Shown here: piece by piece, positions 9,192-62,805 of the stretch
Numbering within the stretch: the first letter of the stretch is position 1
Layout of the letters: each line of letters starts with the position of its first letter
DNA from: Rhynchopus sp. YZ270_cl-10
Taxonomy: Eukaryota
Length of the DNA stretch: 64,000 nucleotides
Assembly (NCBI GenBank): GCA_964035575.1
Contig: OZ037837.1
Location: 806,001-870,000, forward strand
Direction: 5' to 3'
Notes under the pieces: generated by a model
Told to the model about the DNA's origin: nothing
Databases searched by the model: none
What the model saw: only the letters and a program-made list of their open reading frames with translations
Made by a program: the position numbers and the translations under genes

Positions 9192-9206
9192 CTGCGCGTA
9201 GGGCAG

Positions 9207-13895: not shown

Positions 13896-15491
13896 TCACT
13901 GTCGTAAGTGTTGTGGTAGCTTGCTGAGTACAGCCTTGCTGCACTTGTCCTTTCCACGTAAGGTCTTCAATGATGTGCACCCTTGGAGGAAGTTCCATCC
14001 TATTTCGGTGACAGCTCGGAATCCACTCAAGTCAACTGTGGACAAGGATGTGCACCCGGTGAGGAACAAATCTCCAATCGAGGTGACAGCTTGTAATCCA
14101 CTCAAGTCGACTTTCGTCAAAGCTTTGCAGTCACGAAGGAACTCGGTATGAATAACAGTCACAGCAGACGCACGACTGAGATCAATGCACGTCACTGTAG
14201 TTCCTTTCAAGAAGCTGTATGGAATCGCAGTCGCAACTTGTGCCTGCAGGAGCAAGCAAGCCACCTTCGGATCACGCACATACTCTAACCTTTGTGATGT
14301 AAGTGTTGTCTCACCCAACGCAACTAGTGCTGCAATGGCATCCTGCTTCGTCCTCTCTGTGTTAGAATGCGTTACAACAACCCTGTGACCCCTCAGCTGC
14401 ACCACGTCCTCTCCTTCTGCAATCACTTCATCTCTGAAAGTCATGTCGAAGCAGCCTTCACGCAACCCCACTGCAGACGCCACCTTCCGAAGCAAGTCCT
14501 TGCCCGTGTCATCCACACTCACCTCAATCTCGTGTTCCACTCCATCCAACCCCTGCACAAGGACAGGCACAAAAAGCGCAGACATCTGGGCAAGGGCGTC
14601 GTGCACGTTCGAAATAGGCAGATTCAGGGAAAACGTTGCGTGTGGGTCTGCAGCACCCACAAGGCGGTGGCGGTCTCCACTCGGTGCCATGCTGTTGATG
14701 CTCCGCACAACGGCCTGCGACTCTGTGACCGCACGCAGCACCTGGTCGTCCCCAAGCTGGCACACCGCCTCGCACTCAGCAATCATGTGTCCTGCCTTCG
14801 CAACAAACATCTTCAGCGCACACACCTCCCCTTCACGACTGAGTGCCTGTGTGAGGAATCTCCGTGCCAACTCCTCCTTACACACGACTTCGCTGCGCGA
14901 CACATCCTCACGCATCACGAGGTGCCCGACGTGTGTCTGCAGGAGAAGGTCTTTGTACCTCTCCTCCGTGAGTGGGAGTGCCTCAAGCACACGGCACTTC
15001 TCCTCTGCAGCAGTCCGCTGTGCTGCCAGGTCTGCCACGTGCGAGTGGAGGATGTTGCGCTGGCGTTTCATGTAGTCCGTGATGTCAACTGTCTTGTGCC
15101 CCGCATGTGTGTCGCACTGGTCACAACGCATGCAGATCAACACGTCTCCACACGCAGGGTCTTCACAGACGAGGGACAGCTCTTCTCCTGGGTGATGTGC
15201 ACACTTCGACGACGTCCCGTACGCAGTCACAGAAGCGCGATGTGCTTCACGGTCACGTGGCCTTGGGTGGCAAGCGTCATAGCACGCAGGTGTGTCGCAG
15301 AAGAACAGCTCCACGCACATCCCGCACTGCAGCTGTGCAGGCACGCCACAGTTCTCACAGCTCGGCATCTGTGGTGCGGTGGGCTGCGTGTCAGACCCCA
15401 TGTTGTGTGTTTCGAAGAGGTGGGAGGGTGCAGGGCCGTCCACCCGGGCCTTCTTTGTGGTGGGGGACTCACTCACGGAGGAACGCTTCAT
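13896..15491 (-). CDS. B-box/B-box/coiled-coil/ubiquitin-like/LRR protein, copy A (2 core LRRs)
   Basis: Zn-finger motifs CENC..CGMC..CD..C..CH and CAHH..CEDPAC..C..C..H..H; UBL VPVLVQGLDGVEHEIEVSVDDTG; 25-aa CxxLxxVDLSGxxxVTxIGxxFLxx repeats. Confidence 0.88.
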   Translation of the reverse strand: MKRSSVSESPTTKKARVDGPAPSHLFETHNMGSDTQPTAPQMPSCENCGVPAQLQCGMCVELFFCDTPACYDACHPRPRDREAHRASVTAYGTSSKCAHHPGEELSLVCEDPACGDVLICMRCDQCDTHAGHKTVDITDYMKRQRNILHSHVADLAAQRTAAEEKCRVLEALPLTEERYKDLLLQTHVGHLVMREDVSRSEVVCKEELARRFLTQALSREGEVCALKMFVAKAGHMIAECEAVCQLGDDQVLRAVTESQAVVRSINSMAPSGDRHRLVGAADPHATFSLNLPISNVHDALAQMSALFVPVLVQGLDGVEHEIEVSVDDTGKDLLRKVASAVGLREGCFDMTFRDEVIAEGEDVVQLRGHRVVVTHSNTERTKQDAIAALVALGETTLTSQRLEYVRDPKVACLLLQAQVATAIPYSFLKGTTVTCIDLSRASAVTVIHTEFLRDCKALTKVDLSGLQAVTSIGDLFLTGCTSLSTVDLSGFRAVTEIGWNFLQGCTSLKTLRGKDKCSKAVLSKLPQHLRQ

Positions 15492-15591
15492 TTTTTTCTG
15501 TGTTTTCTGGGAAAATGTGTGTGGATCGTGAGTGTGATATTATCTGTCATTGACACGTGGTCAATACCATTCAGATTATTGGTCATTTCAC

Positions 15592-15755
15592 TTTTTTCAA
15601 ACCCAAAGTGATGAAAAAACTCCGAAAACCCGTGTCCTGAAGTACTGGGGAGAGGTGGAGCACAAAAGGGGGGAGGGGGAAAACGGTAAGACTCATGACA
15701 ACCGAAGAGCACGTCTTTCATTTGCAGACGTATTGCATACTCGTACAAAATGAAA
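15592..15755 (-). mobile_element. Solo, diverged A repeat of the second YR element family
   Basis: Similar to 22204-22361 (tcctgaagtac..ggagaggtggagcacaaaagggggg..gcatactcgtacaaaatgaaa); absent at the paralogous positions ~48735 and ~53315. Confidence 0.8.
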
Positions 15756-18855: not shown

Positions 18856-19581
18856 ATACACAGTATACACAGTATACACAGTATACACAGTATACACAGT
18901 ATACACAGTATACACAGTATACACAGTATACACAGTATACACAGTATACACAGTATACACAGTATACACAGTATACACAGTATACACAGTATACACAGTA
19001 TACACAGTATACACAGTATACACAGTATACACAGTATACACAGTATACACAGTATACACAGTATACACAGTATACACAGTATACACAGTATACACAGTAT
19101 ACACAGTATACACAGTATACACAGTATACACAGTATACACAGTATACACAGTATACACAGTATACACAGTATACACAGTATACACAGTATACACAGTATA
19201 CACAGTATACACAGTATACACAGTATACACAGTATACACAGTATACACAACATACACAATACAGTACAGTACAGTACAGTACAGTACAGTACAGTACAGT
19301 ACAGTACAGTACAGTACAGTACAGTACAGTACAGTACAGTACAGTACAGTACAGTACAGTACAGTACAGTACAGTACAGTACAGTACAGTACAGTACAGT
19401 ACAGTACAGTACAGTACAGTACAGTACAGTACAGTACAGTACAGTACAGTACAGTACAGTACAGTACAGTACAGTACAGTACAGTACAGTACAGTACAGT
19501 ACAGTACAGTACAGTACAGTACAGTACAGTACAGTACAGTACAGTACAGTACAGTACAGTACAGTACAGTACAGTACAGTA
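18856..19581. repeat. Compound satellite (CAGTATACA)n followed by (CAGTA)n
   Basis: 9-mer array 18856-19249, 5-mer array 19261-19581. Confidence 0.97.
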
Positions 19582-20170
19582 CTTGTGTGCTGGGAAGCAT
19601 GCCACCAGTGTTACAATTTTACAAGGTAAAGATGACCGATGTACGTACGTATGTGAGGAAGAAGGCTGAGTGGGCAGAGAGTGCCACAAAATATCAGGAA
19701 GCCATGCAGTCCCCTGTCCGGTTGTCCAGTACCCAGTACCCAGTACCAAAAAATCAAAATCAATTTGATTCACAACTCTTCACAACAGTTCACAACGCCA
19801 CTATGTTAACCGTGATGTTACCATGGTTGTGAACATTTGTGAACATTTGTGTTCAGGTACCCCCCCGTATAGTACCAACCGTCGTGTATTTGGGGTGCCC
19901 CCCAAAGGGTACGTTGCACCACAACCGAGTATGAGCAATGACAAGGGAGTATGACGAGTTACATTACAATATTAAATAATGACAAGACCCCTGTCAAATA
20001 ACAAGGCCTAACGCCACTCATTACAGGGGTCTTGTCGTTAGTTGGTCTTGTAAAACGACTAGAAAGACACGAAAACGAAACCAGAAAAAAACTTCACCAT
20101 TGGACGATTCTGGGTTCCGAGCTTCCAACACAAAATTTTTGTATTTTTTTTTCGCGATTTTTGAAAACTT

Positions 20171-24240: not shown

Positions 24241-24249
24241 GCGTGCGTA

Positions 24250-27326: not shown

Positions 27327-27360
27327 TGTCCGCGTTTTTGGGGGGGGGGGGGGGGGGATA

Positions 27361-28771: not shown

Positions 28772-30412
28772 TCACTCGCGTAAGTGTTGTGGTATCTTGC
28801 TGAGTACATCATTGCTGCACTTGTCCTTTCCATGCAAGGTCTTCAATAATGTGCACCCGTCAAGGAAAGCATACCCAACGGCCGTGACACGTTGCAATGC
28901 ACTCAAGTCAACTGTGGACAGGGATGTGCACCCTTGGAGGAACTGGTTCCCGATCGTGGTGACACCTTGCAATCCACTCAAGTCGACTGACAATAAAGAT
29001 GTGCACCCGAAGAGGAAGTGGTTCCCAATCGAGGTTACACCTTGTAATCCACTCAGGTCGACCTTGGTCAAAGCACTGCAGCCACAAAGTACCTGGTTCC
29101 CAATCGCAGTCACAGCAGACGTATGACTGAGATCAATGCACGTCACTGCAGTTCTTGCCAAGAAGTTGTCTGGAATCGCATTCACAACTAGTGCCTGCAG
29201 GAGCAAGCAAGCCACCTTCGGATCAGTCACCTGCTTCAATCTTGCTTCCGTAAATTTTGTCTCACCCAACACCTGAGATGCTGCAATGGCAACGTACTTC
29301 CTCTGTGTGTTCGTCTGCGTTACAACAACCCTGTGACCCCTCAGCTGCACCACGTCCTCTCCTTCTGCAATCACTTCATCTCTGAAAGTCATGTCGAAGC
29401 AGCCTTCACGCAACCCCACTGCAGACGCAACCTTCCGAAGCAAGTCCTTGCCCGTGTCATCCACACTCACCTCAATCTCGTGTTCCACTCCATCCAACCC
29501 CTGCACAAAGACAGGCACAAAAAGCGCAGACATCTGGGTAAGGGCGTCGTGCACGTTCGAAACAGGCAGCTTCAGGGAAAACGTTGCATGTAGGTGTGCA
29601 GCACCCACAAGGCGGTGGCGGTCTCCACTCGCTGCCATGCTGTTGATGCTCCGCACAACGGCCTGCGACTCTGTGACCGCACGCAGCACCTGGTCATTCC
29701 CAAGCTGGCACACCGCCTCGCACTCAGCAATCATGTGTCCTGCCTTCGCAACAAACGTCTTCAGCGCACACACCTCCCCTTCACGACTGAGTGCCTGTGT
29801 GAGGAATCTGCGTGTCACCTCCTCCTCACACACGACTTCGCTGCGCGACACATCCTCACGCATCACGAGGTGATCGACGTGTGTCTGCAGGAGAAGGTCT
29901 TTGTACCTGTCCTCCGTGGGTGGGAGTGCCTCAAGCACACGGCACTTCTCCTCTGAAGCAGTCCGCTGTGTTGTCAGGTCTGCCACGTGTGAGTGGAGGG
30001 TGTCACGCTGGCGTTTCACGTAGTCTGTGATGTCAACTGTCTTGTGTCCCGCATGTGTGTCGCACCTGTCACAGCGCATGCAGATCAACGCGTCTCCACA
30101 CGCAGGGTCTTCACAGACGAGGCACAGCTCTTGGCCTGGGTGATGTGCACACTTCGACGACGTCCCGTACGCAGTCACAGAAGCGCGATGTGCCTCACGG
30201 TCACGTGGCCTTGTGTGGCAAGCGTCATAGCACGCAGGTGAGTCGCAGAAGAACAGCTCCACGCACATCCCGCACTGCAGCTGTGCAGGCTTGTCACAGT
30301 TCTCACAGCTCGGCATCTGTGGTGTGGTGGGCTGCGTGTCAGACCCCATGTTGTGTGTTTCGAAGAGGTGGGAGGGTGCAGGGGTGTCTGGAAGGGGTTG
30401 GGTGGGTGGCAT
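28772..30412 (-). CDS. B-box/CC/UBL/LRR protein, copy B (3 core LRRs)
   Basis: Paralogue of copy A; first ATG gives MPPTQPLPD. Confidence 0.88.
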   Translation of the reverse strand: MPPTQPLPDTPAPSHLFETHNMGSDTQPTTPQMPSCENCDKPAQLQCGMCVELFFCDSPACYDACHTRPRDREAHRASVTAYGTSSKCAHHPGQELCLVCEDPACGDALICMRCDRCDTHAGHKTVDITDYVKRQRDTLHSHVADLTTQRTASEEKCRVLEALPPTEDRYKDLLLQTHVDHLVMREDVSRSEVVCEEEVTRRFLTQALSREGEVCALKTFVAKAGHMIAECEAVCQLGNDQVLRAVTESQAVVRSINSMAASGDRHRLVGAAHLHATFSLKLPVSNVHDALTQMSALFVPVFVQGLDGVEHEIEVSVDDTGKDLLRKVASAVGLREGCFDMTFRDEVIAEGEDVVQLRGHRVVVTQTNTQRKYVAIAASQVLGETKFTEARLKQVTDPKVACLLLQALVVNAIPDNFLARTAVTCIDLSHTSAVTAIGNQVLCGCSALTKVDLSGLQGVTSIGNHFLFGCTSLLSVDLSGLQGVTTIGNQFLQGCTSLSTVDLSALQRVTAVGYAFLDGCTLLKTLHGKDKCSNDVLSKIPQHLRE

Positions 30413-35942: not shown

Positions 35943-37775
35943 CTAGTACGGTAGCTTGTTGAGTACATCACTGCTGCACTTGTCCTCTCCATGCAAGGTC
36001 AAACGGTGGCACCCGCGGAGGAACGCGGGCCCCATGCTGGTGACACCTTGTAATCCACTAAGATCAACAGTCGACAAAGATGTGCATCCCCATAGGCACG
36101 AGTGTCCAATACTGGTGACACGTTTTAATCCACTGAAGTCTATTGCAGACAGTGACGTGCACTGGTGGAGAAAGCATTCTCTAATGGTGGTGACAGAGTG
36201 TAATCCACTCAAGTCAACTGTCAACAACGATGTGCACAGGCTGAGGGAGTGGCTCCCAACTGAGGTGACAGCTTGGAGTCCACTTAGATCAAGTGTAGAC
36301 AATGATTCGCACCTGCTGAGGAACCCATCCCCAATCGAGGTGACAGCTTGCAATCCACTCAAGTCCACTGTGGACAATGATGTGCACCCCCAGAGGAACC
36401 CATCCCCAAGCGAGGTGACAGCTTGGAGTCCACTTAGGGAAACTGTGGACAAGGATGTGCACTCCATGAGGAAGTTGTTCCCAATCGAGGTGACACCTTG
36501 CAATCCACTCAAGTCCACTGTATACAATGATTCGCACCGACTGAGGAAATAGTCCCCAAGCGTGGTAACATATTGTAATCCACTCAAGTCGACTTCGGAC
36601 AAATACATGCAGCCACATAGGAAGTCCTTCCCAATCTCAGTCACAGCAGACGCATGACTGAGATCAATGCACTCCACATCAGTTCTCGAGAAGAAGTCGT
36701 CTGGGATCGCAGTCGCAACTCCTGCCTGCAGGAGCAAGCAAGCCACCTCCGGATCAGTCACCCGATAGAACCTTTTTGTTGTAATTTTTGTCTCACCCAA
36801 CGCACGAAGTGCTGCAATGGCGTCCCGCTTCCTCCTCTCTATCTGGGAATGTGTTACAACAACCCTGTGACCCCTCAGCTGCACCACGGTCTCTCCTTCT
36901 GCAATCACTTCACCTCTGAACCTCATGTCGAAGCAGCCTTCACGCAACCCCATTGCAGACGCCACCTTCCGAAGCAAGTCCCTGCCCGTGTCATCCACAC
37001 TCACCTCAATCTCGTGTTCCACTCCATCCAACCCCTGCACAAGGACAGGCACAACAAGAGCCGACATCTGGGCAAGGGCGTCGTGCACGCTCGAAACAGG
37101 CAGCTTCTGGGAAAACGTTGCGTGTGGGTCTGCAGCACCCACAAGGCGGTGGCGGTCTCCACTCGCTGCCATGCTGTTGATGCTCCGCACAATGGCCTGC
37201 GACTCTGTGACCGCACGCAGCACCTGGTCGTCCCCAAGCTGGCACACCGCCTTGCACTCAGCAATCATGTGTCCTGCCTTCGCAACAAACGTCTTCAGCC
37301 CACACATCTGCTCCTCTGCAGCAGTCTGCTGTGTTGTCAGGTCTGCCACATGCGAGTGGAGGATATTGCGCTGGCGCTTCATGTAGTCCGTGATGACAAC
37401 TGTCTTGTGTCCCGCATGTGTGTCGCACTTGGCACAGCACATGCAGATCAACACGTCTCCACACGCAGGGTCTTCACAGACGAGGGACAGCTCTTGGCCT
37501 GGGTGATGTGCACACTTCGACGACGCTCCAAACGAAGTCACAGAAGCGCGATGTGCCTCACGGTCACGTGGCCTTGGGTGGCAAGCGTCATAGCACGCAG
37601 GTGTGTCGCAGAAGAACAGCTCCTTGCACATCCCGCACTGCAGCTGTGCAGGCACGCCACAGTTCTCACAGCTCGGCATCTGTGGTGCGGTGGGCTGTGT
37701 GTCAGACACCATGTTGTGTGTTTCGAAGAGGTGGGAGGGTGCAGGGGTGTCTGGAAGGGGTTGGGTGGGTGGCAT
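35943..37775 (-). CDS. B-box/CC/UBL/LRR protein, copy C (8 core LRRs, in-frame coiled-coil deletion)
   Basis: Paralogue; AAEEQMCGLKTF replaces a ~65-aa longer segment found in the other copies. Confidence 0.88.
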   Translation of the reverse strand: MPPTQPLPDTPAPSHLFETHNMVSDTQPTAPQMPSCENCGVPAQLQCGMCKELFFCDTPACYDACHPRPRDREAHRASVTSFGASSKCAHHPGQELSLVCEDPACGDVLICMCCAKCDTHAGHKTVVITDYMKRQRNILHSHVADLTTQQTAAEEQMCGLKTFVAKAGHMIAECKAVCQLGDDQVLRAVTESQAIVRSINSMAASGDRHRLVGAADPHATFSQKLPVSSVHDALAQMSALVVPVLVQGLDGVEHEIEVSVDDTGRDLLRKVASAMGLREGCFDMRFRGEVIAEGETVVQLRGHRVVVTHSQIERRKRDAIAALRALGETKITTKRFYRVTDPEVACLLLQAGVATAIPDDFFSRTDVECIDLSHASAVTEIGKDFLCGCMYLSEVDLSGLQYVTTLGDYFLSRCESLYTVDLSGLQGVTSIGNNFLMECTSLSTVSLSGLQAVTSLGDGFLWGCTSLSTVDLSGLQAVTSIGDGFLSRCESLSTLDLSGLQAVTSVGSHSLSLCTSLLTVDLSGLHSVTTIRECFLHQCTSLSAIDFSGLKRVTSIGHSCLWGCTSLSTVDLSGLQGVTSMGPAFLRGCHRLTLHGEDKCSSDVLNKLPY

Positions 37776-40054: not shown

Positions 40055-40378
40055 GGAGTGGGAGTGGGAGTGGGAGTGGGAGTGGGAGTGGGAGTGGGAG
40101 TGGGAGTGGGAGTGGGAGTGGGAGTGGGAGTGGGAGTGGGAGTGGGAGTGGGAGTGGGAGTGGGAGTGGGAGTGGGAGTGGGAGTGGGAGTGGGAGTGGG
40201 AGTGGGAGTGGGAGTGGGAGTGGGAGTGGGAGTGGGAGTGGGAGTGGGAGTGGGAGTGGGAGTGGGAGTGGGAGTGGGAGTGGGAGTGGGAGTGGGAGTG
40301 GGAGTGGGAGTGGGAGTGGGAGTGGGAGTGGGAGTGGGAGTGGGAGTGGGAGTGGGAGTGGGAGTGGGAGTGGGAGTG
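40055..40378. repeat. (GGGAGT)n microsatellite
   Basis: ~54 perfect hexamers. Confidence 0.97.
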
Positions 40379-46909: not shown

Positions 46910-48652
46910 CTAGCGTAAGTGTTGTGGTAGCTTCATGAGCACAACCTTGCTGCACTTGTCCTTGCCATGCAAGGTCTTCAATGATGTGCACTCGCCGAGG
47001 AAGATCCGCCCAATTGCGGTGACAGATTGTAGTCCACTTAGATCAACTGTGGACAATGATGCGCACCTGAAGAGGAACTGGAACCCAATCGAGGTGACAG
47101 CTTGCAATCCACTCAGATCAACTGTGGACAGGGATGTGCACCCTTGGAGAAAGTAGTTCCCAATCGAGGTGACACCTTGGAATCCACTCAAGTCAACTGT
47201 TGACAATGATGTGCACCTGAAGAAGAACATGTCACCAATCGTGGTGACACCTTGCAATCCACTCAAGTTAACTTTGGTCAAAGCTGTGCAGTTACGAAGG
47301 ACCTCCTTCCCAATCACAGTCACAGCAGACGCATGACTGAGATCAATGCACGTCACATCGGTTTCCGAGAAGAACTCGTCTGCAATCGCAGTCGCAACTC
47401 CTGCCTGCAGGAGCAAGCAAGCCACCTTCGGATCAGTCACCTGGTCCAATCTTGCTTCTGTAAGTGTTGTCTCACCCAACGCACGAAGTGCTGCAATGGC
47501 AGCCTGCTTCCTCCTCTCTGTGTTGACCTGCGTTACAACAACCCTGTGACCCCTCAGCTGCACCACGTCCTCTCCTTCTGCAATCACTTCATCTCTGAAA
47601 GTCATGTCGAAGCAGCCTTCACGCAACCCCACTGCAGACGCCACCTTCCGAAGCAAGTCCCTGCCCGTGTCATCCACACTCACCTCGATCTCGTGTTCCA
47701 CTCCATCCAACCCCTGCACAAGGACAGGCACAACAAGCGCAGACATCTGGGTAAGGGCGTCGTGCACGTTCGAAACAGGCAGCTTCAGGGAAAACGTTGC
47801 ATGTGGGTCTGCAGCACCCACAAGGCGGTGGCGGTCTCCACTCGCTGCTGCCATGCTGTTGATGTTCCGCACAACGGCCTGCGACTCTGTGAATGCACGC
47901 AGCACCTGGTCATTCCCAAGCTGGCACACCGCCTCGCACTCAGCAATCACGTGTCCTGCCTTCGCAACAAACGTCTTCAGCGCACACACCTCCCCTTCAC
48001 GACTGAGTGCCTGTGTGAGGAATCTGCGTGTCACCTCCTCCTCACACATGACTTCGTTGCGCGACACATCCTCACGCATCACGAGGTGCTCGACGTTTGT
48101 CTGCAGGAGAAGATCTTTGTACCTGTCTGTAAGTGGGAGTGCCACAAACACACGGCACTTCTCCTCTGCAGCAGTCCGCTGTGCTGCCAGGTCTGCCACG
48201 TGTGAGCAGAGAGTGTCACGCTGGCGTTTCATGTAGTCCGTGATGTCAACTGTCTTGTGTCCCGCATGTGTGTCGCACTTGTCACAGCGCATGCAGATCA
48301 ACGCGTCTCCACACGCAGGGTCTTCACAGACGAGGCACAGCTCTTGGCCTGGGTGATGTGCACACTTCGACGACGTCCCGTACGCAGTCACAGAAGCACG
48401 ATGTGCCTCACGGTCAAGTGGCCTTGTGTGGCAAGCGTCATAGCACGCAGGTGTGTCGCAGAAGAACAGCTCCTTACACATCCCGCACTGCAGCTGTGCA
48501 GGCACGCCACAGTTCTCACAGCTCGGCATCTGTGGTGCGGTGGGCTGCGTGTCAGACACCATGTTGTGTGTTTCGGAGAGGTGGGAGGGTGCAGGGCCAT
48601 CCACCCGGGCCTTCTTTGTGGTGGGGGACTCACTCACGGAGGAACGCTTCAT
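46910..48652 (-). CDS. B-box/CC/UBL/LRR protein, copy D (4 core LRRs)
   Basis: Paralogue; start placed at MKRSSVSESPTTKKARV by comparison with copies A and E. Confidence 0.88.
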   Translation of the reverse strand: MKRSSVSESPTTKKARVDGPAPSHLSETHNMVSDTQPTAPQMPSCENCGVPAQLQCGMCKELFFCDTPACYDACHTRPLDREAHRASVTAYGTSSKCAHHPGQELCLVCEDPACGDALICMRCDKCDTHAGHKTVDITDYMKRQRDTLCSHVADLAAQRTAAEEKCRVFVALPLTDRYKDLLLQTNVEHLVMREDVSRNEVMCEEEVTRRFLTQALSREGEVCALKTFVAKAGHVIAECEAVCQLGNDQVLRAFTESQAVVRNINSMAAASGDRHRLVGAADPHATFSLKLPVSNVHDALTQMSALVVPVLVQGLDGVEHEIEVSVDDTGRDLLRKVASAVGLREGCFDMTFRDEVIAEGEDVVQLRGHRVVVTQVNTERRKQAAIAALRALGETTLTEARLDQVTDPKVACLLLQAGVATAIADEFFSETDVTCIDLSHASAVTVIGKEVLRNCTALTKVNLSGLQGVTTIGDMFFFRCTSLSTVDLSGFQGVTSIGNYFLQGCTSLSTVDLSGLQAVTSIGFQFLFRCASLSTVDLSGLQSVTAIGRIFLGECTSLKTLHGKDKCSKVVLMKLPQHLR

Positions 48653-49380: not shown

Positions 49381-49995
49381 ATATTAAACTTGAAAAACGT
49401 GATCCACCCCGCAAAAAGAAAAAGCAGCAAAAGGGAAGGATGGCACCACGGTGTGCCAGAGAGTGGCTTGATCCCATTTGCTGACTTATACCCAACAAAG
49501 ACGACACCTAAGTGAACAGGGGCCGTATACCACCGCTGGTGGCCTAGGTCAGTATATAAGCCAGTTCAAGGCCCGCACTCTGGCAGCGTCAAAAGAAATA
49601 AACAACAATAAAACCACCAGTCATTCCAATGGGAGGAACGAATGACTGGCATCTCCTAATTCTCTAAACTGCGGTGAGTGGAACACCCAACTGATGCAAA
49701 CCACTGCCGCAGGTTAGCACCTACAAAAAGCAAAGAAAAGCAAAGAAAAGAAAAGCAAAAGCTCTGCATGGTAGTAAAGTAGGTGCAGGGTCGCTTAAAT
49801 CCCTGAGGGCACAAAAAGCCCAGCATACACCTCCTCCAGTTGCTTTGGACCCTCCAGTATCATGTGCCCGGGTTTGCAAAAGTGCAATGCAACCATCCCA
49901 CGCGTGGCCTTCGTTCACTCAAAAAAAAAAGAGATTATATCCGGGGACGCCAGGGCAAAAATGCCGGGGGGCAGCCACCTCACGTTTTTGTCCCC
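49381..49995 (-). mobile_element. 615-bp short non-autonomous retroposon
   Basis: 17-bp TSD gcaaggtcgtcaacg(c/a)t at 49364-49380 and 49996-50012; no TIRs; 5' ribozyme fold. Confidence 0.85.
49904..49995 (-). ncRNA. HDV-like self-cleaving ribozyme
   Basis: P1 GGGGAC/GUCCCC, P2 GUGGCU/GGCCAC, P3 GCC/GGC, P1.1 CC/GG, weak P4 CUC/GAG, J4/2 CGAA; starts at nucleotide 1 of the insertion. Confidence 0.8.
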
Positions 49996-51082
49996 GCAAG
50001 GTCGTCAACGATGTGCACCAGTGGAGGAAGTGCTGCCCAGCGGCCGTGACAGCTTGCAACCCACTTAGATCAACTTTTTTTCATACACTCAGTTTGTTAA
50101 AACAAATAACCGCTAATCCCCTCCCCCCGTCTTCCGAAAAACAGAACATTTTTGCCTACAGTTCACATATTGGTCTTGTCGGACCTGAGAAAACGCGTGC
50201 ATGTTGCATACACATGCACACTTACACCCAACGATGAGGCTCATTGACACATTGCAACGAACTTCACATCCCGGGAAAATGCTATGACGAAAAGAGCGAC
50301 AAAAATACAAAAACGAGAAGACAAAACTAAGCCTATTGTGCTTAGGCACACGTATTTTTCCATTAAAGGACACACATGGGGGCAGAGACAGCACACCTTC
50401 CCAGGGTGTGGCAGGGTCCTTTGCTGAAAGCACGGGACTCTGGCCTCACTTTTCTTTCTTTATCCCAGAACTAGACACACACACAAACACCCCTACCCTC
50501 CCCTCCCCTCTGCTCCCCTCACCAATGAAACGTTAGTAACCACCCTCATTTATAAAGAAAACAAAGACTGATGCCAAGCCCTAGCCTCATAGAGGCGTCT
50601 GTGCTAGGGTGAAGCGCAAACCAGACTGGGCCAAAGTCTCAACTCCATTCAGTATCACACGACGGGAAAGAAAAGAGGGTCAGTTCTCCACGAATCCGTA
50701 GAGATACAAAACACCTGCGTGAAACCCACAGCAGTGTTCCAAACATCCAAAACTCAAAAATGAAAACAAAACTAATTTAGTGGACACACTTCTGATCCTA
50801 AGAAGGACCCCACCCTCACCTTCCCTCACCCAAACCCCAAAGAAATGCTCTGTTGTTCACAACACCCAGCCAACCCTCTCAAATCCTCCCAACTGTTTCG
50901 TATGACTCATCCCAACAAACCCCACCTCACTCTGTCACCACCTCCCAAAAATAATAAAGAAGCACACCTCAGCACAGTGCAGAGCAGCCGTCGTGCAGCT
51001 CACCACACAGTGCGAGGGGTGAAGATGCACAACAACAACTGCTCCAAAAGTGAACGCTTTCTTGCTTGTCACTCGCGTAAGT

Positions 51083-51337
51083 CCACCTGTCGCGCATGAT
51101 CTTTCTTTCCCCCCACCCCACCCCCTTGTCTTTGCTTCCCTCCACCCCCTCCTCCTCCTCCCTAGTTCGTCCTCAAGGGCATCTCCCCTGTCGTGCACCG
51201 CTTAGTGGTGTCCTTCCGTAATTATCCAAAGTATTGTTTTCCCCACCCCCCACCCCGTTGCTTTAACTTTGCTTGCACATCCCGCCCCCCCGTCCCCTAT
51301 CAAAAAAGGAAAAGAAGACTATCGCATCAGATAGCTG
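51083..51337. mobile_element. 255-bp insertion with 12-bp TSD at the stop codon of copy E
   Basis: actcgcgtaagt duplicated at 51071-51082 and 51338-51349. Confidence 0.8.
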
Positions 51338-53231
51338 ACTCGCGTAAGTGTTGTGGTAGCTTCTTGAGTACAGCCTTTCTGCACTTGTCCTTTCCATGCA
51401 AGGTCTTCAATAATGTGCACTCGTGGAGGAAGTGCTCCCCAACGGCCTTGACAGCTTGCAATCCAGTTAGATCAACTGTGTGCAATGATGCGCACCCGGT
51501 GAGGAAGTGCCGCCCAATCGAGGTGACACCTTGTAATCCACTCAAATCAACTGTGGACAAGGATGTGCACCCGAGGAGAAACTGGTGCCCAATCGATGTG
51601 ACGCATTGCAATCCACTCAAATCAACTGTTGACAAGGATGTGCACTGTTGGAGGAACTGTGCCCTGATCCTGGTGACACCTTGGAATGCACTCAGATCAA
51701 CCGTCGACAATGATGTGCACCCGGCGAGGAAGCCGTCCGCAATCGAGCTGACAGCTTGGAATCCACTTAGATCAGCTGTGGGCAACGACGCACACCCGCT
51801 GAGGAACATACACCCAATCGTGGTGACAGCTTGCAATCCACTCAGGTCGACGTTGGTCAAAGCTGTGCAGTTATAAAGTACGAAGTTCCCAATCGCAGTC
51901 ACAGCAGACGCATGACTGAGATCAATGCACGTCACTGTAGTTTTCCAGAAGAAGTTGTCTGGAATCGCAGTCGCAACTTGTGCCTGCAGGAGCAAGCAAG
52001 CCACCTTCGGATCAGTCACCTGCTTCAATCTTGCTTCTGTAAGTGTTGTCTCACCCAACGCACGAAGTGCTGCAATGGCATCCTGCTTCCTCCTCTGTGC
52101 ATTTGTCTGCTTTACAACAACCCTGTGACCCCTCAGCTGCACCACGTCCTCTCCTTCTGCAATCACTTCATCTCTGAAAGTCATGTCGAAGCCGTCTTCA
52201 CGCAACCCCACTGCAGACGCCACCTTCCGAAGCAAGTCCCTGCCCGTGTCAGCCACACGGACCTCAATCTCGTGTTCCACTCCATCCAACCCCTGCACAA
52301 GGACAGGCACAAAAAGCGCAGACACCTGGGCAAGGGCGTCGTGCACGTTCGAAACAGGCAGATTCAGGGAAAACGTTGCGTGTGGGTCTGCAGCACCCAC
52401 AAGGCGGTGGCGGTCTCCACTCGCTGCCATGCTGTTGATGTTCCGCACAACGGCCTGCAACTCTGGGACCGCACGCAGCACCTGGTCGTCCCCAAGCTGG
52501 CACACCGCCTCGCACTCAGCAATCATGTGTCCTGCCTTCGCAACAAACATCTTCAGCGCACACACCTCCCCTTCACGACTGAGTGCCTGTGTGAGGAATC
52601 TCCGTGCCAACTCCTCCTCACACACGACTTCGCTGCGCGACACATCCTCACGCATCACGAAATGCCCGACGTGTGTCTGCAGGAGAAGGTCTTTGTACCT
52701 GTCCTCCGTGAGTGGGAGTGCCTCAAACACACGGCACTTCTCCTCTGCAGCAGTCCGCTGTGCTGCCAGGTCTGCCACGTGTGAGTGGAGGGTGTCACGC
52801 TGGCGTTTCATGTAGTCCGTGATGTCAACTGTCTTGTGTCCCGCATGTGTGTCGCACTTGTCACAACGCATGCAGATCAACACGTCTCCACACGCAGGGT
52901 CTTCACAGACGAGGGACAGCTCTTGGCCTGGGTGATGTGCACACTTCGACGACGTCCCGTACGCAGTCACAGAAGCACGATGTGCCTCACGGTCACGTGG
53001 CCTTGGGTGGCAAGCGTCATAGCACGCAGGTGTGTCGCAGAAGAACAGCTCCTTGCAGATCCCGCACTGCAGCTGTGCAGGCACGCCACAGTTCTCACAG
53101 CTCGGCATCTGTGGTGCGGTGGGCTGCGTGTCAGACACCATGTTGTGTGTTTCGGAGAGGTGGGAGGGTGCAGGGCCGTCCACCCGGGCCTTCTTTGTGG
53201 TGGGGGACTCACTCACGGAGGAACGCTTCAT
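51327..53231 (-). CDS. B-box/CC/UBL/LRR protein, copy E (6 core LRRs)
   Basis: 634-aa ORF; the last residues SAI* are supplied by the insertion. Confidence 0.88.
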   Translation of the reverse strand: MKRSSVSESPTTKKARVDGPAPSHLSETHNMVSDTQPTAPQMPSCENCGVPAQLQCGICKELFFCDTPACYDACHPRPRDREAHRASVTAYGTSSKCAHHPGQELSLVCEDPACGDVLICMRCDKCDTHAGHKTVDITDYMKRQRDTLHSHVADLAAQRTAAEEKCRVFEALPLTEDRYKDLLLQTHVGHFVMREDVSRSEVVCEEELARRFLTQALSREGEVCALKMFVAKAGHMIAECEAVCQLGDDQVLRAVPELQAVVRNINSMAASGDRHRLVGAADPHATFSLNLPVSNVHDALAQVSALFVPVLVQGLDGVEHEIEVRVADTGRDLLRKVASAVGLREDGFDMTFRDEVIAEGEDVVQLRGHRVVVKQTNAQRRKQDAIAALRALGETTLTEARLKQVTDPKVACLLLQAQVATAIPDNFFWKTTVTCIDLSHASAVTAIGNFVLYNCTALTNVDLSGLQAVTTIGCMFLSGCASLPTADLSGFQAVSSIADGFLAGCTSLSTVDLSAFQGVTRIRAQFLQQCTSLSTVDLSGLQCVTSIGHQFLLGCTSLSTVDLSGLQGVTSIGRHFLTGCASLHTVDLTGLQAVKAVGEHFLHECTLLKTLHGKDKCRKAVLKKLPQHLRESAI

Positions 53232-56130: not shown

Positions 56131-57798
56131 TCAATTGAGCAAGCTTCGGGGTAGACTCAGACTTATAGTTTTGAAAACAACATAGCTGCACTTTTCCTTT
56201 CCCTGCAAGGTCGTCAACGCTGTGCACCAGTGGAGGAAGTGCTGCCCAACGGCCGTGACAGCTTGCAACCCACTTAGATCAACTGTGGACAATGATGCGC
56301 ACCCAAAGAGGAAGTTGTTCCCAATCGAGGTGACAGCATGGAATCCACTCAAGTCAACTGTCGATAATGATGTGCACCCGAAAAGGAAGTTGCTCCCAAT
56401 CGAGGTGACACCTTGCAATCCACCCAATTCGACTTTGGTCAAAGCTGTGCAGTCACGAAGGAAGTCGTTCCCGATCACAGTCACAGCAGACGCATGACTG
56501 AGATCAATGCACGTCACTGCAGAACTCGAGAAGAAGTAGTCTGGAATCGCAGTCGCAACTTGTGCCTGCAGGAGCAAGCAAGCCACCTTCGGATCAGTCA
56601 CCTGCTTCAATCTTGCTTCTGCAAATATTGTCTCACCCAACGCACGAAGTTCTGCAATGGCATCATCCTTCCTCTGTGTGTTGACCTGCGTTACAACAAC
56701 CCTGTGACCCCTCAGCTGCACCACGTCCTCTCCTTTTGCAATCACTTCATCTCTGAAAGTCATGTCGAAGCCGTCTTCACGCAACCTCACTGCAGACGCC
56801 ACCTTCCGAAGCAAGTCCCTGCCCGTGTCATCCACACTCACCTCAATCTCGTGTTCCACTCCATCCAACCCCTGCACAAAGACAGGCACAAAAAGCGCAG
56901 ACACCTGGGCAAGGGCGTCGTGCACGTTCGAAACAGGCAGATTCAGGGAAAACTTTGCGTGTGGGTCTGCAGCACCCACAAGGCGGTGGCGGTCTCCACT
57001 TGGCGCTGCCATGCTGTTGATGTTCCGCACAACGGCCTGCGACTCTGTGAATGCACGCAGCACCTGGTCATTCCCAAGCTGGCACACCGCCTCACACTCA
57101 GCAATCATGTGTCCTGCCTTCGCAACAAACGTCTTCAGCGCACACACCTCCCCTTCACGACTGAGTGCCTGTGTGAGGAAGCTCCGTGCCAACTCCTCCT
57201 CACACACGACTTCGCTGCGCGACACATCCTCACGCATCACGAGGTGCCCGACGTGTGTCTGCAGGAGAAGGTCTTTGTATCTGTCTTTGTACCTGTCCTC
57301 CGTGGGTGGGAGTGCCTCAAGCACATGGCACTTCTCCTCTGCAGCAGTCCGCTGTGCTTCCAGGTCTGCCACGTGTGAGCAGAGGGTGTCACGCTGGCGT
57401 TTCATGTAGTCCGTGATGTCAACTGTCTTGTGTCCCGCATGTGTGTCGCACTTGTCACAGCGCATGCAGATCAACGCGTCTCCACACGCAGGGTCTTCAC
57501 AGACGAGGCACAGCTCTTGGCCTGGGTGATGTGCACACTTCGACGACGCTCCGAACGAAGTCACAGAAGCGCGATGTGCCTCACGGTCACGTGGCCTTGG
57601 GTGGCAAGCGTCATAGCACGCAGGTGTGTCGCAGAAGAACAGCTCCACGCACATCCCGCACTGCAGCTGTGCAAGCACGCCACAGTTCTCACAGCTCGGC
57701 ATCTGTGGTGCGGTGGGCTGCGTGTCAGACCCCATGTTGTGTGTTTTGAAGAGGTGGGAGGGTGCAGGGGTGTCTGGAAGGGGTTGGGTGGGTGGCAT
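56131..57798 (-). CDS. B-box/CC/UBL/LRR protein, copy F (3 core LRRs, variant C-terminus)
   Basis: Paralogue; DRYK micro-duplication; tail KCSYVVFKTISLSLPRSLLN. Confidence 0.88.
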   Translation of the reverse strand: MPPTQPLPDTPAPSHLFKTHNMGSDTQPTAPQMPSCENCGVLAQLQCGMCVELFFCDTPACYDACHPRPRDREAHRASVTSFGASSKCAHHPGQELCLVCEDPACGDALICMRCDKCDTHAGHKTVDITDYMKRQRDTLCSHVADLEAQRTAAEEKCHVLEALPPTEDRYKDRYKDLLLQTHVGHLVMREDVSRSEVVCEEELARSFLTQALSREGEVCALKTFVAKAGHMIAECEAVCQLGNDQVLRAFTESQAVVRNINSMAAPSGDRHRLVGAADPHAKFSLNLPVSNVHDALAQVSALFVPVFVQGLDGVEHEIEVSVDDTGRDLLRKVASAVRLREDGFDMTFRDEVIAKGEDVVQLRGHRVVVTQVNTQRKDDAIAELRALGETIFAEARLKQVTDPKVACLLLQAQVATAIPDYFFSSSAVTCIDLSHASAVTVIGNDFLRDCTALTKVELGGLQGVTSIGSNFLFGCTSLSTVDLSGFHAVTSIGNNFLFGCASLSTVDLSGLQAVTAVGQHFLHWCTALTTLQGKEKCSYVVFKTISLSLPRSLLN

Positions 57799-59757
57799 GG
57801 GATGGAAACAGAGTATGCGTTCAAGACTGCAGCACACAGGAAAGGTGAGTGAGAGGCTGGTGTGTAGATGAGGATGCAGCTGGGTCAGGGATCAGGGATG
57901 CTCGACGTCCTGGCACCGAGGCTGACTCAGAGATGCGCTGCACAGTGTATGGGGTGTGGGGAAGTGGAACATCAGGTGAGGCATGTGGGGTTGCTTTGTT
58001 TTTGGTCTTTTCCTTACCACCTGTTGTCAGAGGTGGGTCTTTTTTTCATACACTCAGTTTGTTCCAAAGTCGATACAACAAATAACCGCTAATCCCCTCC
58101 CCCGTTTTCCCGAAAAACACAACATTTTTGTCTACAGTTAACATATTGGTCTTGTCGGACCTGAGAAAACGCGTGCATGTTGCATACACATGCACACTTA
58201 CACCCAACGATGAGGCTCATTGATACACTGCAATGCACGAACTTCACATCCCGGGAAAATGCTATGACGAAAAGAGCGACAAAAATACAAAAACGAGAAG
58301 ACAAAACTAAGCCTATTGTGCTTAGTCACACGTATTTTTTCATTAAAGGACACACATGGGGGCACAGACAGCACACCTTCCCCAGGGTGTGGCAGGGTCC
58401 TTTGCTGAAAGCGCGGGACTCTGGCCTCACTTTTCTTTGCTATTCCCAGAACTAGACACACAAACACCCCTCCCCTCCCCTACCCTCCCCTCTGCACCCC
58501 TCACCAATGAAACGTTAGTAGCCACCCTCATTTATAAAGAAAACAAAGACTGATGCCAAGCCCTAGCCTCATAGAGGCGTCTGTGCTAGGGTGAAGCGCA
58601 AACCAGACTGGGCCAAAGTCTCAACTCCACTCAGTATCACACGACGGGAAAGAAAAGAGGGTCAGTTCTCCACGAATCCGTAGAGATACAAAACACCTGC
58701 GTGAAACCCACAGCAGTGTTCCAAACATCCAAAACTCAAAAATGAAAACAAAACCAATTTAGCGGACACACTTCTGATCCTAAGAAGGACCCCATCCTCA
58801 CCTTCCCTCACCCAAACCCCAAAGAAATGCTCTGGTGTTCACAACACCCAGCCAACCCTCTCAAATCCTCCCAATTGTTTCGTATGGCTCATCCCAACAA
58901 ACCCCACCTCACTCTGTCACCACCTCCCAAAAATAATAAAGAAGCACACCTCAGCACAGTGCAGAGCAGCCGTCGTGCAAGCTGACCACACAGTGCGAGG
59001 GGTGAAGATGCACAACAACAAAATCCTGCAAAAGTCAACATTTCTGGTTTCTCACTGGCGTAAGTGTTGTGGTAGCTTGCTGAGTACAGCCTTGCTGCAC
59101 TTGTCCTTTCCATGCAAGGTCTTCAATGATGTGCACCCGTCAAGGAAAGCATACCCAACGGCCGTGACACGTTGCAATGCACTCAAGTCCACTGTGGACA
59201 AGGATGTGCAACCGTGGAGGAAGAAGTTCCCAATCGAGGTGGCAGCTTTGAATCCACTCAAGTCAACCGTCGACAATGATGTGCACCCGAAGAGGAACTG
59301 GTGCCCAATCGAGGTGACAGTTTTGAATCCACTTAGATCAACTGTGGACAAGGATGTACACCCTTGGAGAAAGCTGTTCCCAATCGAGGTGACAGCTTGT
59401 AATCCACTCAAGTCAACCGTCGACAAGGATGTGCACCTAAAGAGGAAGTGGCTCCCAATCGAGGTGACACCTTGCAATCCACTCAAGTCAACTGTGGACA
59501 AGGATGTGCACCCCAAGAGGAACCCGTCACCAATCGTGGTGACAGCTTGTAATCCACTCAAGTTAACTTTGGTCAAAGCTGTGCAGTCACGAAGGAACTC
59601 GTTCCCAATCACAGTCACAGCAGACGCATGACTGAGATCAATGCACGTCACTGTAGTTCCTTTCAAGAAGAACTCGTCTGCAATCGCAGTCGCAACTCCT
59701 GCCTGCAGGAGCAAGCAAGCCACCTTCGGATCAGTCACCTGCTTCAATCTTGCTTCT

Positions 59758-60359
59758 ATAAACGTTTTTAAAAATAGGATGGAACACCCCGTTCCGAAGA
59801 GGAATGCAGCCACCCCGAAAAAGTGGGGGTGTGTCGCCAGTCTGCGGTGAGAAACTCCTCCCTGAGTCAAAACTGCCGCTGGTTAGCGCTGGCTAAGGTT
59901 CCCTTTTCACCCGGTCACAATCGAGTCTCGCTCCGTCGGCGTTGACTGCACTGCAAAGCCCCTTGGTCCACCGTCGTAAAAAGACACCACAAAAAGCGTA
60001 GGTAGGTGGGGGACCGGCAGGTTACAGACAGAGGCAGTACGGAGCTAAGGTGTCGGCGGTCGCGGGTTGCCGTGGAGGCCTGCCCCCCGTGGAGGTCTTG
60101 CGATCTGGGAGTTGTGGAAGTGATCGGCTCAGAGTACCCTGCATTCCATGCACGACTCGAGCTCCTTGTGGTAGGATATTGGGGTCCCGGGAAGCACCCT
60201 TCGCCCCGAGGTCCCACCACCCCAGACAGTTTGTAGGTCTAAAAGCACAACGTACTTGTCCAGGACCTGGCCGCTCTTGGGTTCTCTCGAAAAAAAGATA
60301 CTAATCCCGTACGCCCGTGCACCGCAAAAATGTGCTATGGGGGGCGGTCCGCCGTCGGG
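59758..60359 (-). mobile_element. 602-bp short non-autonomous retroposon
   Basis: Perfect 19-bp TSD ctgcttcaatcttgcttct at 59739-59757 and 60360-60378; its 5' ~97 nt resemble the ribozyme at 49904-49995. Confidence 0.88.
60263..60359 (-). ncRNA. Putative variant HDV-like ribozyme
   Basis: Shares GCCCCCC..GCA..UUUUUGC..GGCGU..GGAU..AUCUUUUUUU..GAG.GAAC with the first; possible P2 GGACC/GGUCC; P1 imperfect. Confidence 0.5.
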
Positions 60360-62805
60360 CTGCTTCAATCTTGCTTCTGTAAGTGTTGTCTCACCCAACG
60401 CATGAAGTGCTCCAATGGCATCCTGCTTCCTCCTCTCTGTGTTGGTCTGCTTTACAACAACCCTGTGACCCCTCAGCTGCACCACGTCCTCTCCTTCTGC
60501 AATCACTTCATCTCTGAAAGTCATGTCGAAGCCGTCTTCACGCAACCCCACTGCAGACGCCACCTTCCGAAGCAAGTCCCTGCCCGTGTCATCCACACTC
60601 ACCTCAATCTCGTGTTCCACTCCATCCAACCCCTGCACAAGGACAGGCACAAAAAGCGCAGACATCTGGGCAAGGGCGTCGTGCACGTTCGAAACAGGCA
60701 GATTCAGGGAAAAGGTTGCGTGTGGGTCTGCAGCACCCACAAGGCGGTGGCGGTCTCCACTCGCTGCCATGCTGTTGATGTTCCGCACAACGGCCTGCAA
60801 CTCTGGGACCGCACGCAGCACCTGGTTGTCCCCAAGCCGGCACACCGCCTTGCACTCAGCAATCATGTGTCCTGCCTTCGCAACAAACGTCTTCAGCGCA
60901 CACACCTCCCCTTCACGACTGAGTGCCTGTGTGAGGAAGCTCCGTGCCACCTCCTCCTCACACACGACTTCGCTGCGCGACACATCCTCACGCATCACGA
61001 GGTGCCCGACGTGTGTCTGCAGGAGAAGGTCTTTGTACCTGTCCTCCGTGGGTGGGAGTGCCTCAAGCACACGGCACTTCTCCTCTGCAGCAGTCCGCTG
61101 TGATGTCAGGTCTGCCACGTGTGAGTGGAGGGTGTCACGCTGGTGTTTCATGTAGTCCGTGATGTCAACTGTCTTGTGTCCCGCATGTGTGTCGCACTTG
61201 TCACAACGCATGCAGATCAACGCGTCTCCACACGCAGGGTCTTCACAGACGACGCACAGCTCTTGGCCTGGGTGAAGTGCACACTTCGACGACGCTCCGA
61301 ACGAAGTCACAGAAGCACGATGTGCCTCACGGTCACGTGGCCTTGTGTGGCAAGCGTCATAACACGCAGGTGTGTCGCAGAAGAACAGCTCCACGCACAT
61401 CCCGCACTGCAGCTGTGCAGGCACGCCACAGTTCTCACAGCTCGGCATCTGTGGTGCGGTGGGCTGCGTGTCAGACCCCATGTTGTGTGTTTCGAAGAGG
61501 TGGGAGGGTGCAGGGGTGTCTGGAAGGGGTTGGGTGGGTGGCATGGGATGGAAACAGAGTGTGCGTTCAAGACTGCAGCACACAGGAAAGGTGAGTGAGA
61601 GGCTGGTGATCCTTGTCAAGCTTCTGCACCACTCATCACCACAGAAGTGACAGCGTTCTTTGTGCCCCCTCTTCCCTCCCTCCCCCGACTCCTCTTCTTC
61701 CTCCACATCGGTTGCCTCCTCCGAAGCATGCACAACCGCTGCTGCGATCCCACCCCCACCCACTGCCTCTCCCCCTCCTCCCACACACCCCGCTGCCCCT
61801 CTACCACTCCCAGGACTCTGGTGCCACTACGGCAAGCCGAGGTGCCAGACATGCACGAAAGTACCCCTTGGCTGGGCACGTCCCTGTTCCACCCCAACAT
61901 CACCACAACGACGGCCGGGAAGCGGCAATGCGCCTCTGCACCACAACACAACCCACAGCTCCCAACCTCGTCCCCAAGACAAAGCATTTCATCACGTTTT
62001 GGCGCTTTTCTTTCAACTACTCCCGAGGGGCAAAGCTCCCCTTTCGAGTTGCGCGGAAATGTGTGAAGATGTGTGAAGATGTGTCATCAGTAAAACAACA
62101 CAAAACACAAAGCTTTGCGAGACGAACCTGAGCCTCACATGATAATCACCTGAAAAGGAGAGGGGATGCCTCTTGGGGTGTGTGCTTTTTTATTTGAGAT
62201 CGGTTTTCTTGCATCGACAATGACCCACCAAAGAGGTGGGATTATTCATTTTTTGGGGGAGTTGTTTTTAGCATCCACGACTGCCCAGGGAAAGGCACAA
62301 TGGTTAATTGGGTACAGTGCTAGCTTCCCCAAAGAGACGTGTAGCGGGTGGTATGCAGTACTCAAAATGTATTTGGCATCCAACAAAAGTCCACAAAATT
62401 AGTACAAAAATACCCAAATTGGTATAACTTGAAAGGGGTGATTCACTTCTTGCCCACTTTTTGCGCCCCCATTCAGCCACACCACAAATCTGCTTTATTT
62501 GGACGCAGGTATTTGGACCCTGTACCTGAAAACCAGGAAATGGGGTGACAAAAAGAAGAAAAAGATAGAATTGAGTGTTGCGAAAAGTTAATGAGACAAA
62601 ACTAAGCCTATTGTGCTTAGTCACACGTACCTTTTTCATTAAAGGACAGCCATACATGGGGGCACAGACAGCACACCTTCCCCAGGGTGTGGCAGGGTCC
62701 TTTGCTGAAAGCGCGGGACTCTGGCCTCACTTTTCTTTGCTAATCCCAGAACTAGACATGCACGTACACAAACACCCCTCCCCTCCCCTCCCCTCTGCAC
62801 CCCTC

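What the first reader, a model, noticed from the sequence alone, without database searches (positions are those of the whole stretch)
13896..61544. Array of RING-less TRIM-like genes with a constant B-box/CC/UBL body and hypervariable LRR heads: candidate diversified intracellular receptor system
Seen: 7 paralogues are nearly identical across both B-boxes, the coiled coil and the ubiquitin-like domain. Their 25-aa (75-bp) LRR arrays differ in number (2, 3, 8, 4, 6, 3, 6). Variation is concentrated at the same positions, G-x-x-F-L-x-x (e.g. DL/TG, WN/QG, NH/FG, YA/DG, FQ/FR, RI/GE, QH/HW), while the CxSLSTVDLSG scaffold is fixed. Known: B-box plus coiled coil plus a variable C-terminal recognition domain is the TRIM layout, and LRR hypervariability marks NLR and VLR immune receptors. 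Inference: a recognition module coupled to proteasome targeting through the UBL, under diversifying selection, possibly protist anti-viral or anti-symbiont immunity. I do not recognise this domain combination as a described family.
Basis: partly seen in the sequence, partly recalled or inferred. Interest (0 to 1): 0.85.

Follow-up and report, generated by a model that had tools for sequence, protein, structure and literature searches.

The report
RING-less TRIM-like receptors with hypervariable repeats
A tandem family of single-exon genes in a likely single-celled eukaryote joins a TRIM-like zinc-finger and coiled-coil body to shuffled leucine-rich repeats whose four variable residues are under positive selection, so it is likely a diversified set of sensors for foreign proteins inside the cell.

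Summary
Observation confirmed with corrections. Seven minus-strand paralogues carry 2, 3, 8, 4, 6, 3 and 6 LRR units; one is broken by a 602-bp insertion, one lacks 57 coiled-coil residues. A confident model shows B-box1, B-box2, a coiled coil (closest to TRIM5), a ubiquitin fold and BspA/TpLRR-class repeats; there is no RING. Unit positions 20, 21, 24 (and 25) are positively selected: omega about 4 against background, far outside 42 neutral simulations, 28 of them with recombination, and synonymous change is not locally raised. The 'constant' body is young and recombining (omega 1.1), not strongly constrained, though its 16 zinc ligands are kept. Two searches gave 130 family proteins, apparently from one assembly; 38 have the full layout. 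The proteasome-targeting idea is weak: the ubiquitin-like domain lacks Ile44, and 14 LRR-bearing members give no UBL hit. Best reading: an intracellular non-self recognition repertoire, convergent with fish finTRIMs and fungal het-d/het-e. Ligand, expression and downstream effector are untested. B-box plus LRR-like repeats has precedent (Dictyostelium AreA; B-box/DUF285 clusters), so this is a new variant, not a new category.

The parts
13896..15491 (-). Copy 1: intact ORF, 531 aa, 2 LRR units, KR-rich N-terminus
28772..30412 (-). Copy 2: intact ORF, 546 aa, 3 LRR units
35943..37775 (-). Copy 3: ORF of 610 aa, 8 LRR units, in-frame 57-aa deletion in the coiled coil
46910..48652 (-). Copy 4: intact ORF, 580 aa, 4 LRR units, KR-rich N-terminus
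49982..50074 (-). LRR remnant without a body (relic)
51327..53231 (-). Copy 5: intact ORF, 634 aa, 6 LRR units, KR-rich N-terminus (reference copy)
52956..53099 (-). Copy 5 B-box type 1 (8 Cys/His ligands)
52818..52955 (-). Copy 5 B-box type 2 (8 Cys/His ligands), closest solved match TRIM5
52422..52817 (-). Copy 5 coiled-coil region
52110..52313 (-). Copy 5 ubiquitin-like domain, Thr at the Ile44 position
51870..52109 (-). Copy 5 helical linker, cap and first irregular repeat; omega 2.55 across copies
51420..51869 (-). Copy 5 six 75-bp BspA/TpLRR-class units
56131..57798 (-). Copy 6: intact ORF, 555 aa, 3 LRR units
59052..61544 (-). Copy 7: 6 LRR units, interrupted in the linker; the body frame stops inside the insertion
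59758..60359 (.). 602-bp insertion flanked by a 19-bp target-site duplication (59739-59757 and 60360-60378)
   Evidence: the same insert-derived tail occurs in P0030 on another contig

Best explanation
These genes encode soluble RING-less B-box/B-box/coiled-coil proteins with a positively selected LRR head, and they likely act as a diversified set of intracellular sensors or adaptors for foreign proteins of a virus, symbiont or parasite. Shown: domain layout, repeat-number variation, mosaic copies, positive selection at four positions per repeat, gene birth and decay. Inferred: equivalent positions stack along the solenoid into one binding strip; point mutation makes new residues and unequal crossing-over or conversion deals units among copies; the coiled coil would dimerise and the B-boxes would build higher-order assemblies on a repetitive target, as in TRIM5 and pyrin (recalled). 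With no RING, output would need a partner (an E3 ligase, the autophagy machinery or plain sequestration); the UBL is an optional interaction module, not an obligatory proteasome tag.
For: Fold: model pLDDT 84.8; best VIA matches mini-TRIM5 B-box2 (Z 13.3, rmsd 3.3, 134 aligned), PcpA (Z 12.9, rmsd 3.1, 123 aligned) and ubiquitin (Z 12.2, rmsd 1.4, 70 aligned). Selection: omega 3.7-6.8 at positions 20/21/24 on three trees, 2dlnL 58-108; M2a vs M1a 46.5 and M8 vs M8a 44.7; 42 neutral simulations reached at most omega 1.69 and 2dlnL 9.5; against the sites' own synonymous rate omega 3.98, p 8e-6, for the four named positions; synonymous mismatch there 0.245 against 0.281 in the scaffold. The variable sites hold 356 distinct triplets in 446 units and are 23.5% F/W/Y/H against 1.1% at other non-core positions. 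Middle units are no closer within than between genes (0.201 vs 0.178); bodies are mosaic (p 0.0002). The 16 zinc ligands are kept in 54-55 of 55 members while 44 of 209 other columns are that conserved. No signal peptide or membrane segment by hydropathy in the six intact copies. The same body also carries WD40 or another head.
Against: No ligand or phenotype is known. The own-site test on the 32 window units alone, at three positions, is borderline (p 0.052, 0.13, 0.041), and the raw pairwise ratio pN/pS within those codons is 1.02 (0.8-1.34). Three site sets were tried (p 0.028, 8e-6, 5e-5). The body's mean omega is 1.10 (p 0.60), and 22 of the 81 body-type proteins have fewer than two LRR units, so many copies may be dead. 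This genome expands other families too (425 hits for a neighbouring membrane protein), so copy number alone says little. The variable positions lie outside the LxxLxL strand that binds ligand in most LRR classes; that they form the concave face rests on a recalled paper.
Confidence: 0.55

Rival explanations
1. Nuclear or intragenomic surveillance: the heads recognise proteins or nucleic acids of the host's own mobile elements or other selfish genes, or products of a different strain (allorecognition, as in fungal het-d/het-e).
For: Three of seven window copies start with a KR-rich, NLS-like stretch (motif reading recalled) and 22 of 49 UBL-LRR relatives end in one. The window holds tyrosine-recombinase retroelements. 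Repeat exchange plus four selected residues per repeat is the het-d/het-e pattern (PMC1805685, abstract).
Against: Four of seven window copies lack the KR-rich start; no NTPase or cell-death domain was found; 15 of 49 relatives end in a CaaX-like motif, pointing to membranes instead.
Confidence: 0.15
2. Proteasome shuttle: the LRR binds a target and the UBL docks it on the proteasome.
For: True ubiquitin fold, also matching Rad23 and Dsk2 UBLs (Z 10.4-11.0); UBL-LRR is the commonest layout of the family (49 of 130).
Against: Ile44 is replaced by Ser, Thr or Cys in 88 of 99; Arg42 is mostly Asp and Lys48 mostly Glu. 14 LRR-bearing members give no UBL hit; of 12 junctions seen, 9 are clean in-frame losses and 3 partial. 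The UBL is internal in the B-box forms.
Confidence: 0.1
3. Relaxed birth-and-death expansion: tandem duplication and conversion of a tolerant repeat gene, with no present selected function.
For: Body omega 1.10, mean dS 0.046 and dN 0.050; one of seven copies broken, one deleted, one relic; many truncated relatives; the genome expands other families.
Against: Omega well above 1 at the variable sites under site models and simulations; zinc ligands kept; six of seven frames open; 47% of body sites fit omega near 0.01.
Confidence: 0.1
4. Offensive or surface role: adhesins or effectors acting on prey or a host, like BspA proteins of Trichomonas and Entamoeba.
For: Same LRR class; Trichomonas has 911 BspA-like genes and a CAAX-bearing Entamoeba BspA is reported on the cell surface (PMC2843621, abstract and passages); 15 of 49 relatives here end in CaaX-like motifs.
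Against: No signal peptide or membrane segment in the window copies; B-boxes and UBLs are intracellular domains (general knowledge).
Confidence: 0.1

Closest known systems
TRIM5alpha and RING-less B-box/coiled-coil proteins such as pyrin
   Same: B-box2 followed by a coiled coil matches TRIM5 structures (5va4 E 6.9e-5; 5eiu Z 13.3); variable C-terminal head.
   Different: No RING; an internal UBL; TpLRR head instead of PRY-SPRY; single-exon genes; the coiled coil is broken by a proline hinge and tolerates a 57-aa deletion. Pyrin comparison is recalled.
Teleost finTRIMs (PMC2657112, abstract seen)
   Same: Clustered multigene family with nearly identical N-terminal regions and a positively selected C-terminal recognition domain.
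   Different: finTRIMs have a RING and a B30.2 domain and are virus-induced; here no RING, LRR head with variable repeat number, induction untested.
Fungal het-d/het-e WD-repeat family (PMC1805685, abstract seen)
   Same: Repeat units exchanged within and between paralogues; four residues per repeat under positive selection.
   Different: WD40 repeats in an allorecognition family of 10 genes; here LRRs on a B-box/coiled-coil body with no NTPase found.
BspA/TpLRR proteins (Pfam LRR_5; PcpA 4cp6, TpLRR 6mlx; Trichomonas BspA, PMC2843621)
   Same: Repeat class by sequence and fold; large protist expansion.
   Different: Known members are mostly surface proteins; 'B-box', 'ubiquitin' and 'zinc finger' do not occur in the main text of PMC2843621. 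Units here are 25 aa.
B-box plus LRR-like repeat proteins: Dictyostelium AreA (B-box + FNIP; PMC4554924, passages seen) and ESM Atlas B-box/DUF285 clusters
   Same: RING-less B-box joined to short repeats; AreA binds Atg101 and modulates autophagy; Atlas clusters score 0.87-0.88.
   Different: FNIP or DUF285 repeats, no UBL reported in the passages seen; Atlas scores under 0.9 are leads only; homology to this family was not shown.

Membership tests
TRIM (RBCC) | N-terminal RING finger | tested here: not met
   No RING family in Pfam scans; a RING pattern found nothing in six frames of the window and one hit in 130 proteins, which spans the two B-boxes
TRIM (RBCC) | One or two B-boxes with full zinc ligand sets | tested here: met
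   16 Cys/His kept in 54-55 of 55 members; B-box2 matches TRIM5; Pfam scores are below the curated cut-off; B-box1 rests on ligand spacing and a weak ANCHR-like hit
TRIM (RBCC) | Coiled coil directly after the B-box | tested here: met
   Long helices 98-132, 136-152, 166-205, 209-227 in the model, aligned to TRIM5 B-box/coiled-coil entries
TRIM (RBCC) | Antiparallel coiled-coil dimer and B-box-driven higher-order assembly | not tested
BspA/TpLRR class | LxxLxL...IGxxAFxxC-type repeat, Pfam LRR_5, two short strands per turn | tested here: met
   LRR_5 above cut-off in 6 of 7 arrays; best PDB hits 4gt6, 4fs7, 4h09, 6mlx, 4cp6; two strands per unit
BspA/TpLRR class | Flipped curvature, with the non-strand face concave (recalled from Takkouche et al. 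2023) | not testable with these tools
   Model coordinates are not returned; the paper was not held; only its citation was seen
BspA-like surface proteins | Signal peptide, membrane segment or lipid anchor | tested here: not met
   Highest 19-residue hydropathy 1.47-1.64 in the six intact copies; no CaaX end in them
UBL proteasome shuttles (Rad23/Dsk2 type) | Beta-grasp fold | tested here: met
   rmsd 1.4-2.5 over about 70 residues
UBL proteasome shuttles (Rad23/Dsk2 type) | Leu8/Ile44 hydrophobic patch and a UBA domain | tested here: not met
   Ile44 position Ser/Thr/Cys in 88 of 99; no UBA in Pfam scans
NLR / NWD receptors | Central NACHT or NB-ARC NTPase | tested here: not met
   No such family in Pfam scans; the model leaves no room for one

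The most novel reading that the evidence does not exclude
A protist has independently built a TRIM-like non-self receptor repertoire: a modular TpLRR paratope with four selected residues per turn, shuffled among more than a hundred genes and mounted on B-box/coiled-coil, prenylated and nuclear chassis, so that it surveys cytosol, membranes and nucleus without a RING or an NTPase.
Probability: 0.3. Interest if true: 0.85.

Novelty: new variant of a known kind. Interest (0 to 1): 0.62.

Why it matters
How single-celled eukaryotes recognise viruses and intracellular bacteria is largely open. This family offers named, cloneable, single-exon candidates with a measured arms-race signature, so ligand screens and infection tests are direct. 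It would show that the TRIM strategy (B-box/coiled-coil body plus fast-evolving head) and the het-e strategy (repeat shuffling plus four selected residues) arose again in a distant lineage. The regular 25-aa unit with a few free positions is also a natural binder scaffold.

Tried and rejected
No whole genome was held, so copy counts come from protein searches limited to about 8000 scored candidates and clustered at 90%; they are lower bounds. The profile search of 50%-identity representatives and the complex predictor were not available, so distant relatives in other species and the dimer are untested. No relatives in viral contigs (3 pattern matches, none confirmed) or metagenome contigs (417 pattern matches, none confirmed). 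Expression: no RNA holder listed; run X7, guessed to be RNA, also covers intergenic repeats at low depth, so it says nothing on transcription. Summed contig depths were not used as copy numbers. The significant M2a result for the body (2dlnL 24) is not trusted, since the seven copies recombine and that case was not simulated. Rfam gave 0 matches in the window. A canonical GT-AG intron reading of the copy-7 insertion fails on inspection of its ends; a non-canonical intron is not excluded, as removing it with one duplicate leaves the frame intact (621 bases). Lineage was not determined: all non-window hits are unnamed ENA records, and the Diplonema papillatum genome paper has none of six searched terms (PMC10161547); a euglenozoan origin is my guess only. 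Literature searches for this combination found 0 papers; searches listed nothing on it; supplements were not read. Earlier findings of the scan: nothing.
Full report
Observation. Six-frame translation and tblastn find seven minus-strand copies between 13896 and 61544 and a small LRR relic near 50000. Six frames are open. Copy 3 lacks 57 coiled-coil residues. Copy 7 is cut in the linker by a 602-bp insertion with a 19-bp target-site duplication; the same insert-derived tail occurs in P0030 on another contig behind a different flank. Two N-termini occur, one KR-rich (copies 1, 4, 5) and one not.

Anatomy. Pfam gives BspA-type LRR_5 above cut-off in 6 of 7 arrays, and weak B-box and ubiquitin-fold hits. 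A model built on 108 aligned relatives has mean pLDDT 84.8 and shows two B-boxes, long helices, a beta-grasp domain, a helical linker and a beta-solenoid. Its best structural matches are mini-TRIM5 B-box2 (Z 13.3, rmsd 3.3, 134 aligned), pneumococcal PcpA (Z 12.9, rmsd 3.1, 123 aligned) and ubiquitin (Z 12.2, rmsd 1.4, 70 aligned); Foldseek also lists TRIM5 and ubiquitin entries. The 16 zinc ligands are kept in 54-55 of 55 members with both B-boxes, whereas 44 of 209 other columns are that conserved. There is no RING in the window or in the 130 family proteins, and no signal peptide or membrane segment in the six intact copies by hydropathy.

Selection. Positions 20, 21 and 24 are the most variable in the window and in three sets of relatives outside it. 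On 32 units, a codon model gives omega 3.99, 6.80 and 3.70 at these sites against background synonymous rate on three trees (2dlnL 58, 108, 70). M2a beats M1a by 46.5 and M8 beats M8a by 44.7, with sites 20, 21, 24 at posterior 1.0 and 14, 17, 25 weaker. In 42 neutral simulations, 28 with heavy recombination, omega never passed 1.69 nor 2dlnL 9.5. A tree-free ratio of pN at these sites to scaffold pS is 1.77 (1.3-2.7), but against pS inside the same codons it is 1.02 (0.8-1.34), and the own-site likelihood test on the window units alone is borderline (p 0.04-0.13). Selection is therefore a better reading than local hypermutation. Across 129 proteins, 446 units show 356 distinct triplets, led by S, D, G, Y, N, H, with 23.5% F/W/Y/H against 1.1% at other non-core positions, a make-up typical of binding sites (general knowledge).

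The body. From B-box1 to the UBL omega is 1.10 (p 0.60), with mean dS 0.046; a neighbouring gene pair gives 0.49 (p 0.004) by a pairwise version of the same model. Of the pairs among 43 informative sites, 51% are incompatible, and neighbours are more compatible than chance (p 0.0002). The copies are young and exchange sequence. Middle LRR units are no closer within a gene than between genes (0.201 vs 0.178), which fits unit exchange among paralogues. The linker and cap also evolve fast (omega 2.55, p 9e-5).

Family. Two searches gave 130 proteins, 7 from the window and the rest unnamed ENA records. Contig lengths shared with a neighbouring family suggest one assembly (inference). Of 79 with a body, 33 lie on the window's contig, 15 and 12 on two others. 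Of 130, 38 have the full layout with 2-11 units, 14 have LRRs but no UBL hit, 49 are UBL-LRR without B-box or coiled coil, and 22 have fewer than two LRR units. One body carries WD40 repeats and three carry another head. Among the 49, 15 end in a CaaX-like motif and 22 in a KR-rich tail (motif meanings recalled).

The UBL. Aligned to ubiquitin, Ile44 falls on Thr in copy 5, Arg42 on Asp and Lys48 on Glu; the Ile44 column is Ser, Thr or Cys in 88 of 99 members. With 9 clean and 3 partial in-frame losses among 12 junctions seen, obligatory proteasome docking is unlikely.

Mechanism. Most likely (0.55) these are intracellular sensors or adaptors for foreign proteins. Shown: layout, selection, mosaicism, turnover. 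Inferred: stacking of equivalent positions into one strip, dimerisation and avidity through the coiled coil and B-boxes, output through a partner. The variable positions follow the second short strand of each turn, outside the LxxLxL strand. In TpLRR proteins the curvature is reported to be flipped, which would put them on the concave face; this is recalled from Takkouche et al. 2023, whose citation alone I saw. Rivals: intragenomic or strain recognition (0.15), proteasome shuttle (0.1), relaxed expansion (0.1), surface or offensive role (0.1).

Comparison. It works like finTRIMs (PMC2657112, abstract) and diversifies like het-d/het-e (PMC1805685, abstract). It is not a TRIM member by the RING test, nor an NLR. 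B-box plus short LRR-like repeats has precedent in Dictyostelium AreA (PMC4554924, passages) and in Atlas B-box/DUF285 clusters at 0.87-0.88 (leads only); the UBL-LRR part alone gave only generic LRR_5 clusters at 0.76-0.77. Searches for this exact combination found no paper; most subscription papers and all supplements were not seen.

Verdict. A real, positively selected family with an apparently undescribed domain combination; a new variant of a known kind, function untested. Interest 0.62.

Noticed in passing
window 420-2192 and 2794-4644, minus strand: Two copies of a membrane protein whose cytosolic part recalls a degenerate class III nucleotide cyclase (from memory); no Pfam or PDB match; 425 homologues listed by count; pair omega 0.49.
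   Followed up: partly
window 6559-10373, minus strand: Tyrosine-recombinase retroelement (DIRS/Ngaro-like): gag-like ORF, recombinase and RT-RNase H in overlapping frames; a decayed relative seems to lie near 23297-23984.
   Followed up: partly
window 41071-45513, minus strand: Large single-exon surface protein with repeated LamG/concanavalin-like domains, a Pro/Ser/Thr stalk and a membrane anchor, inside the array.
   Followed up: partly
window 59758-60359: 602-bp insert with a 19-bp target-site duplication; an identical insert-derived peptide follows the homologous site in P0030 on another contig: a site-preferring element, conversion, or a non-canonical intron.
   Followed up: partly
P0074-P0130 (other contigs): Sister family of UBL-LRR proteins without B-boxes, with CaaX-like or KR-rich C-termini and the same variable positions.
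   Followed up: partly
P0056; P0048, P0050, P0052: The same B-box/coiled-coil/UBL body fused to WD40 repeats, or to a short unclassified beta-rich head.
   Followed up: partly
window 20225-21754, minus strand: ORF that looks like the 3' end of a non-LTR retroelement (by eye; no Pfam hit).
   Followed up: no
window 18856-19582, 24250-25666, 33634-33867, 40055-40378, 54277-54524, 63034-63215: Long near-perfect micro- and minisatellites between the genes.
   Followed up: no
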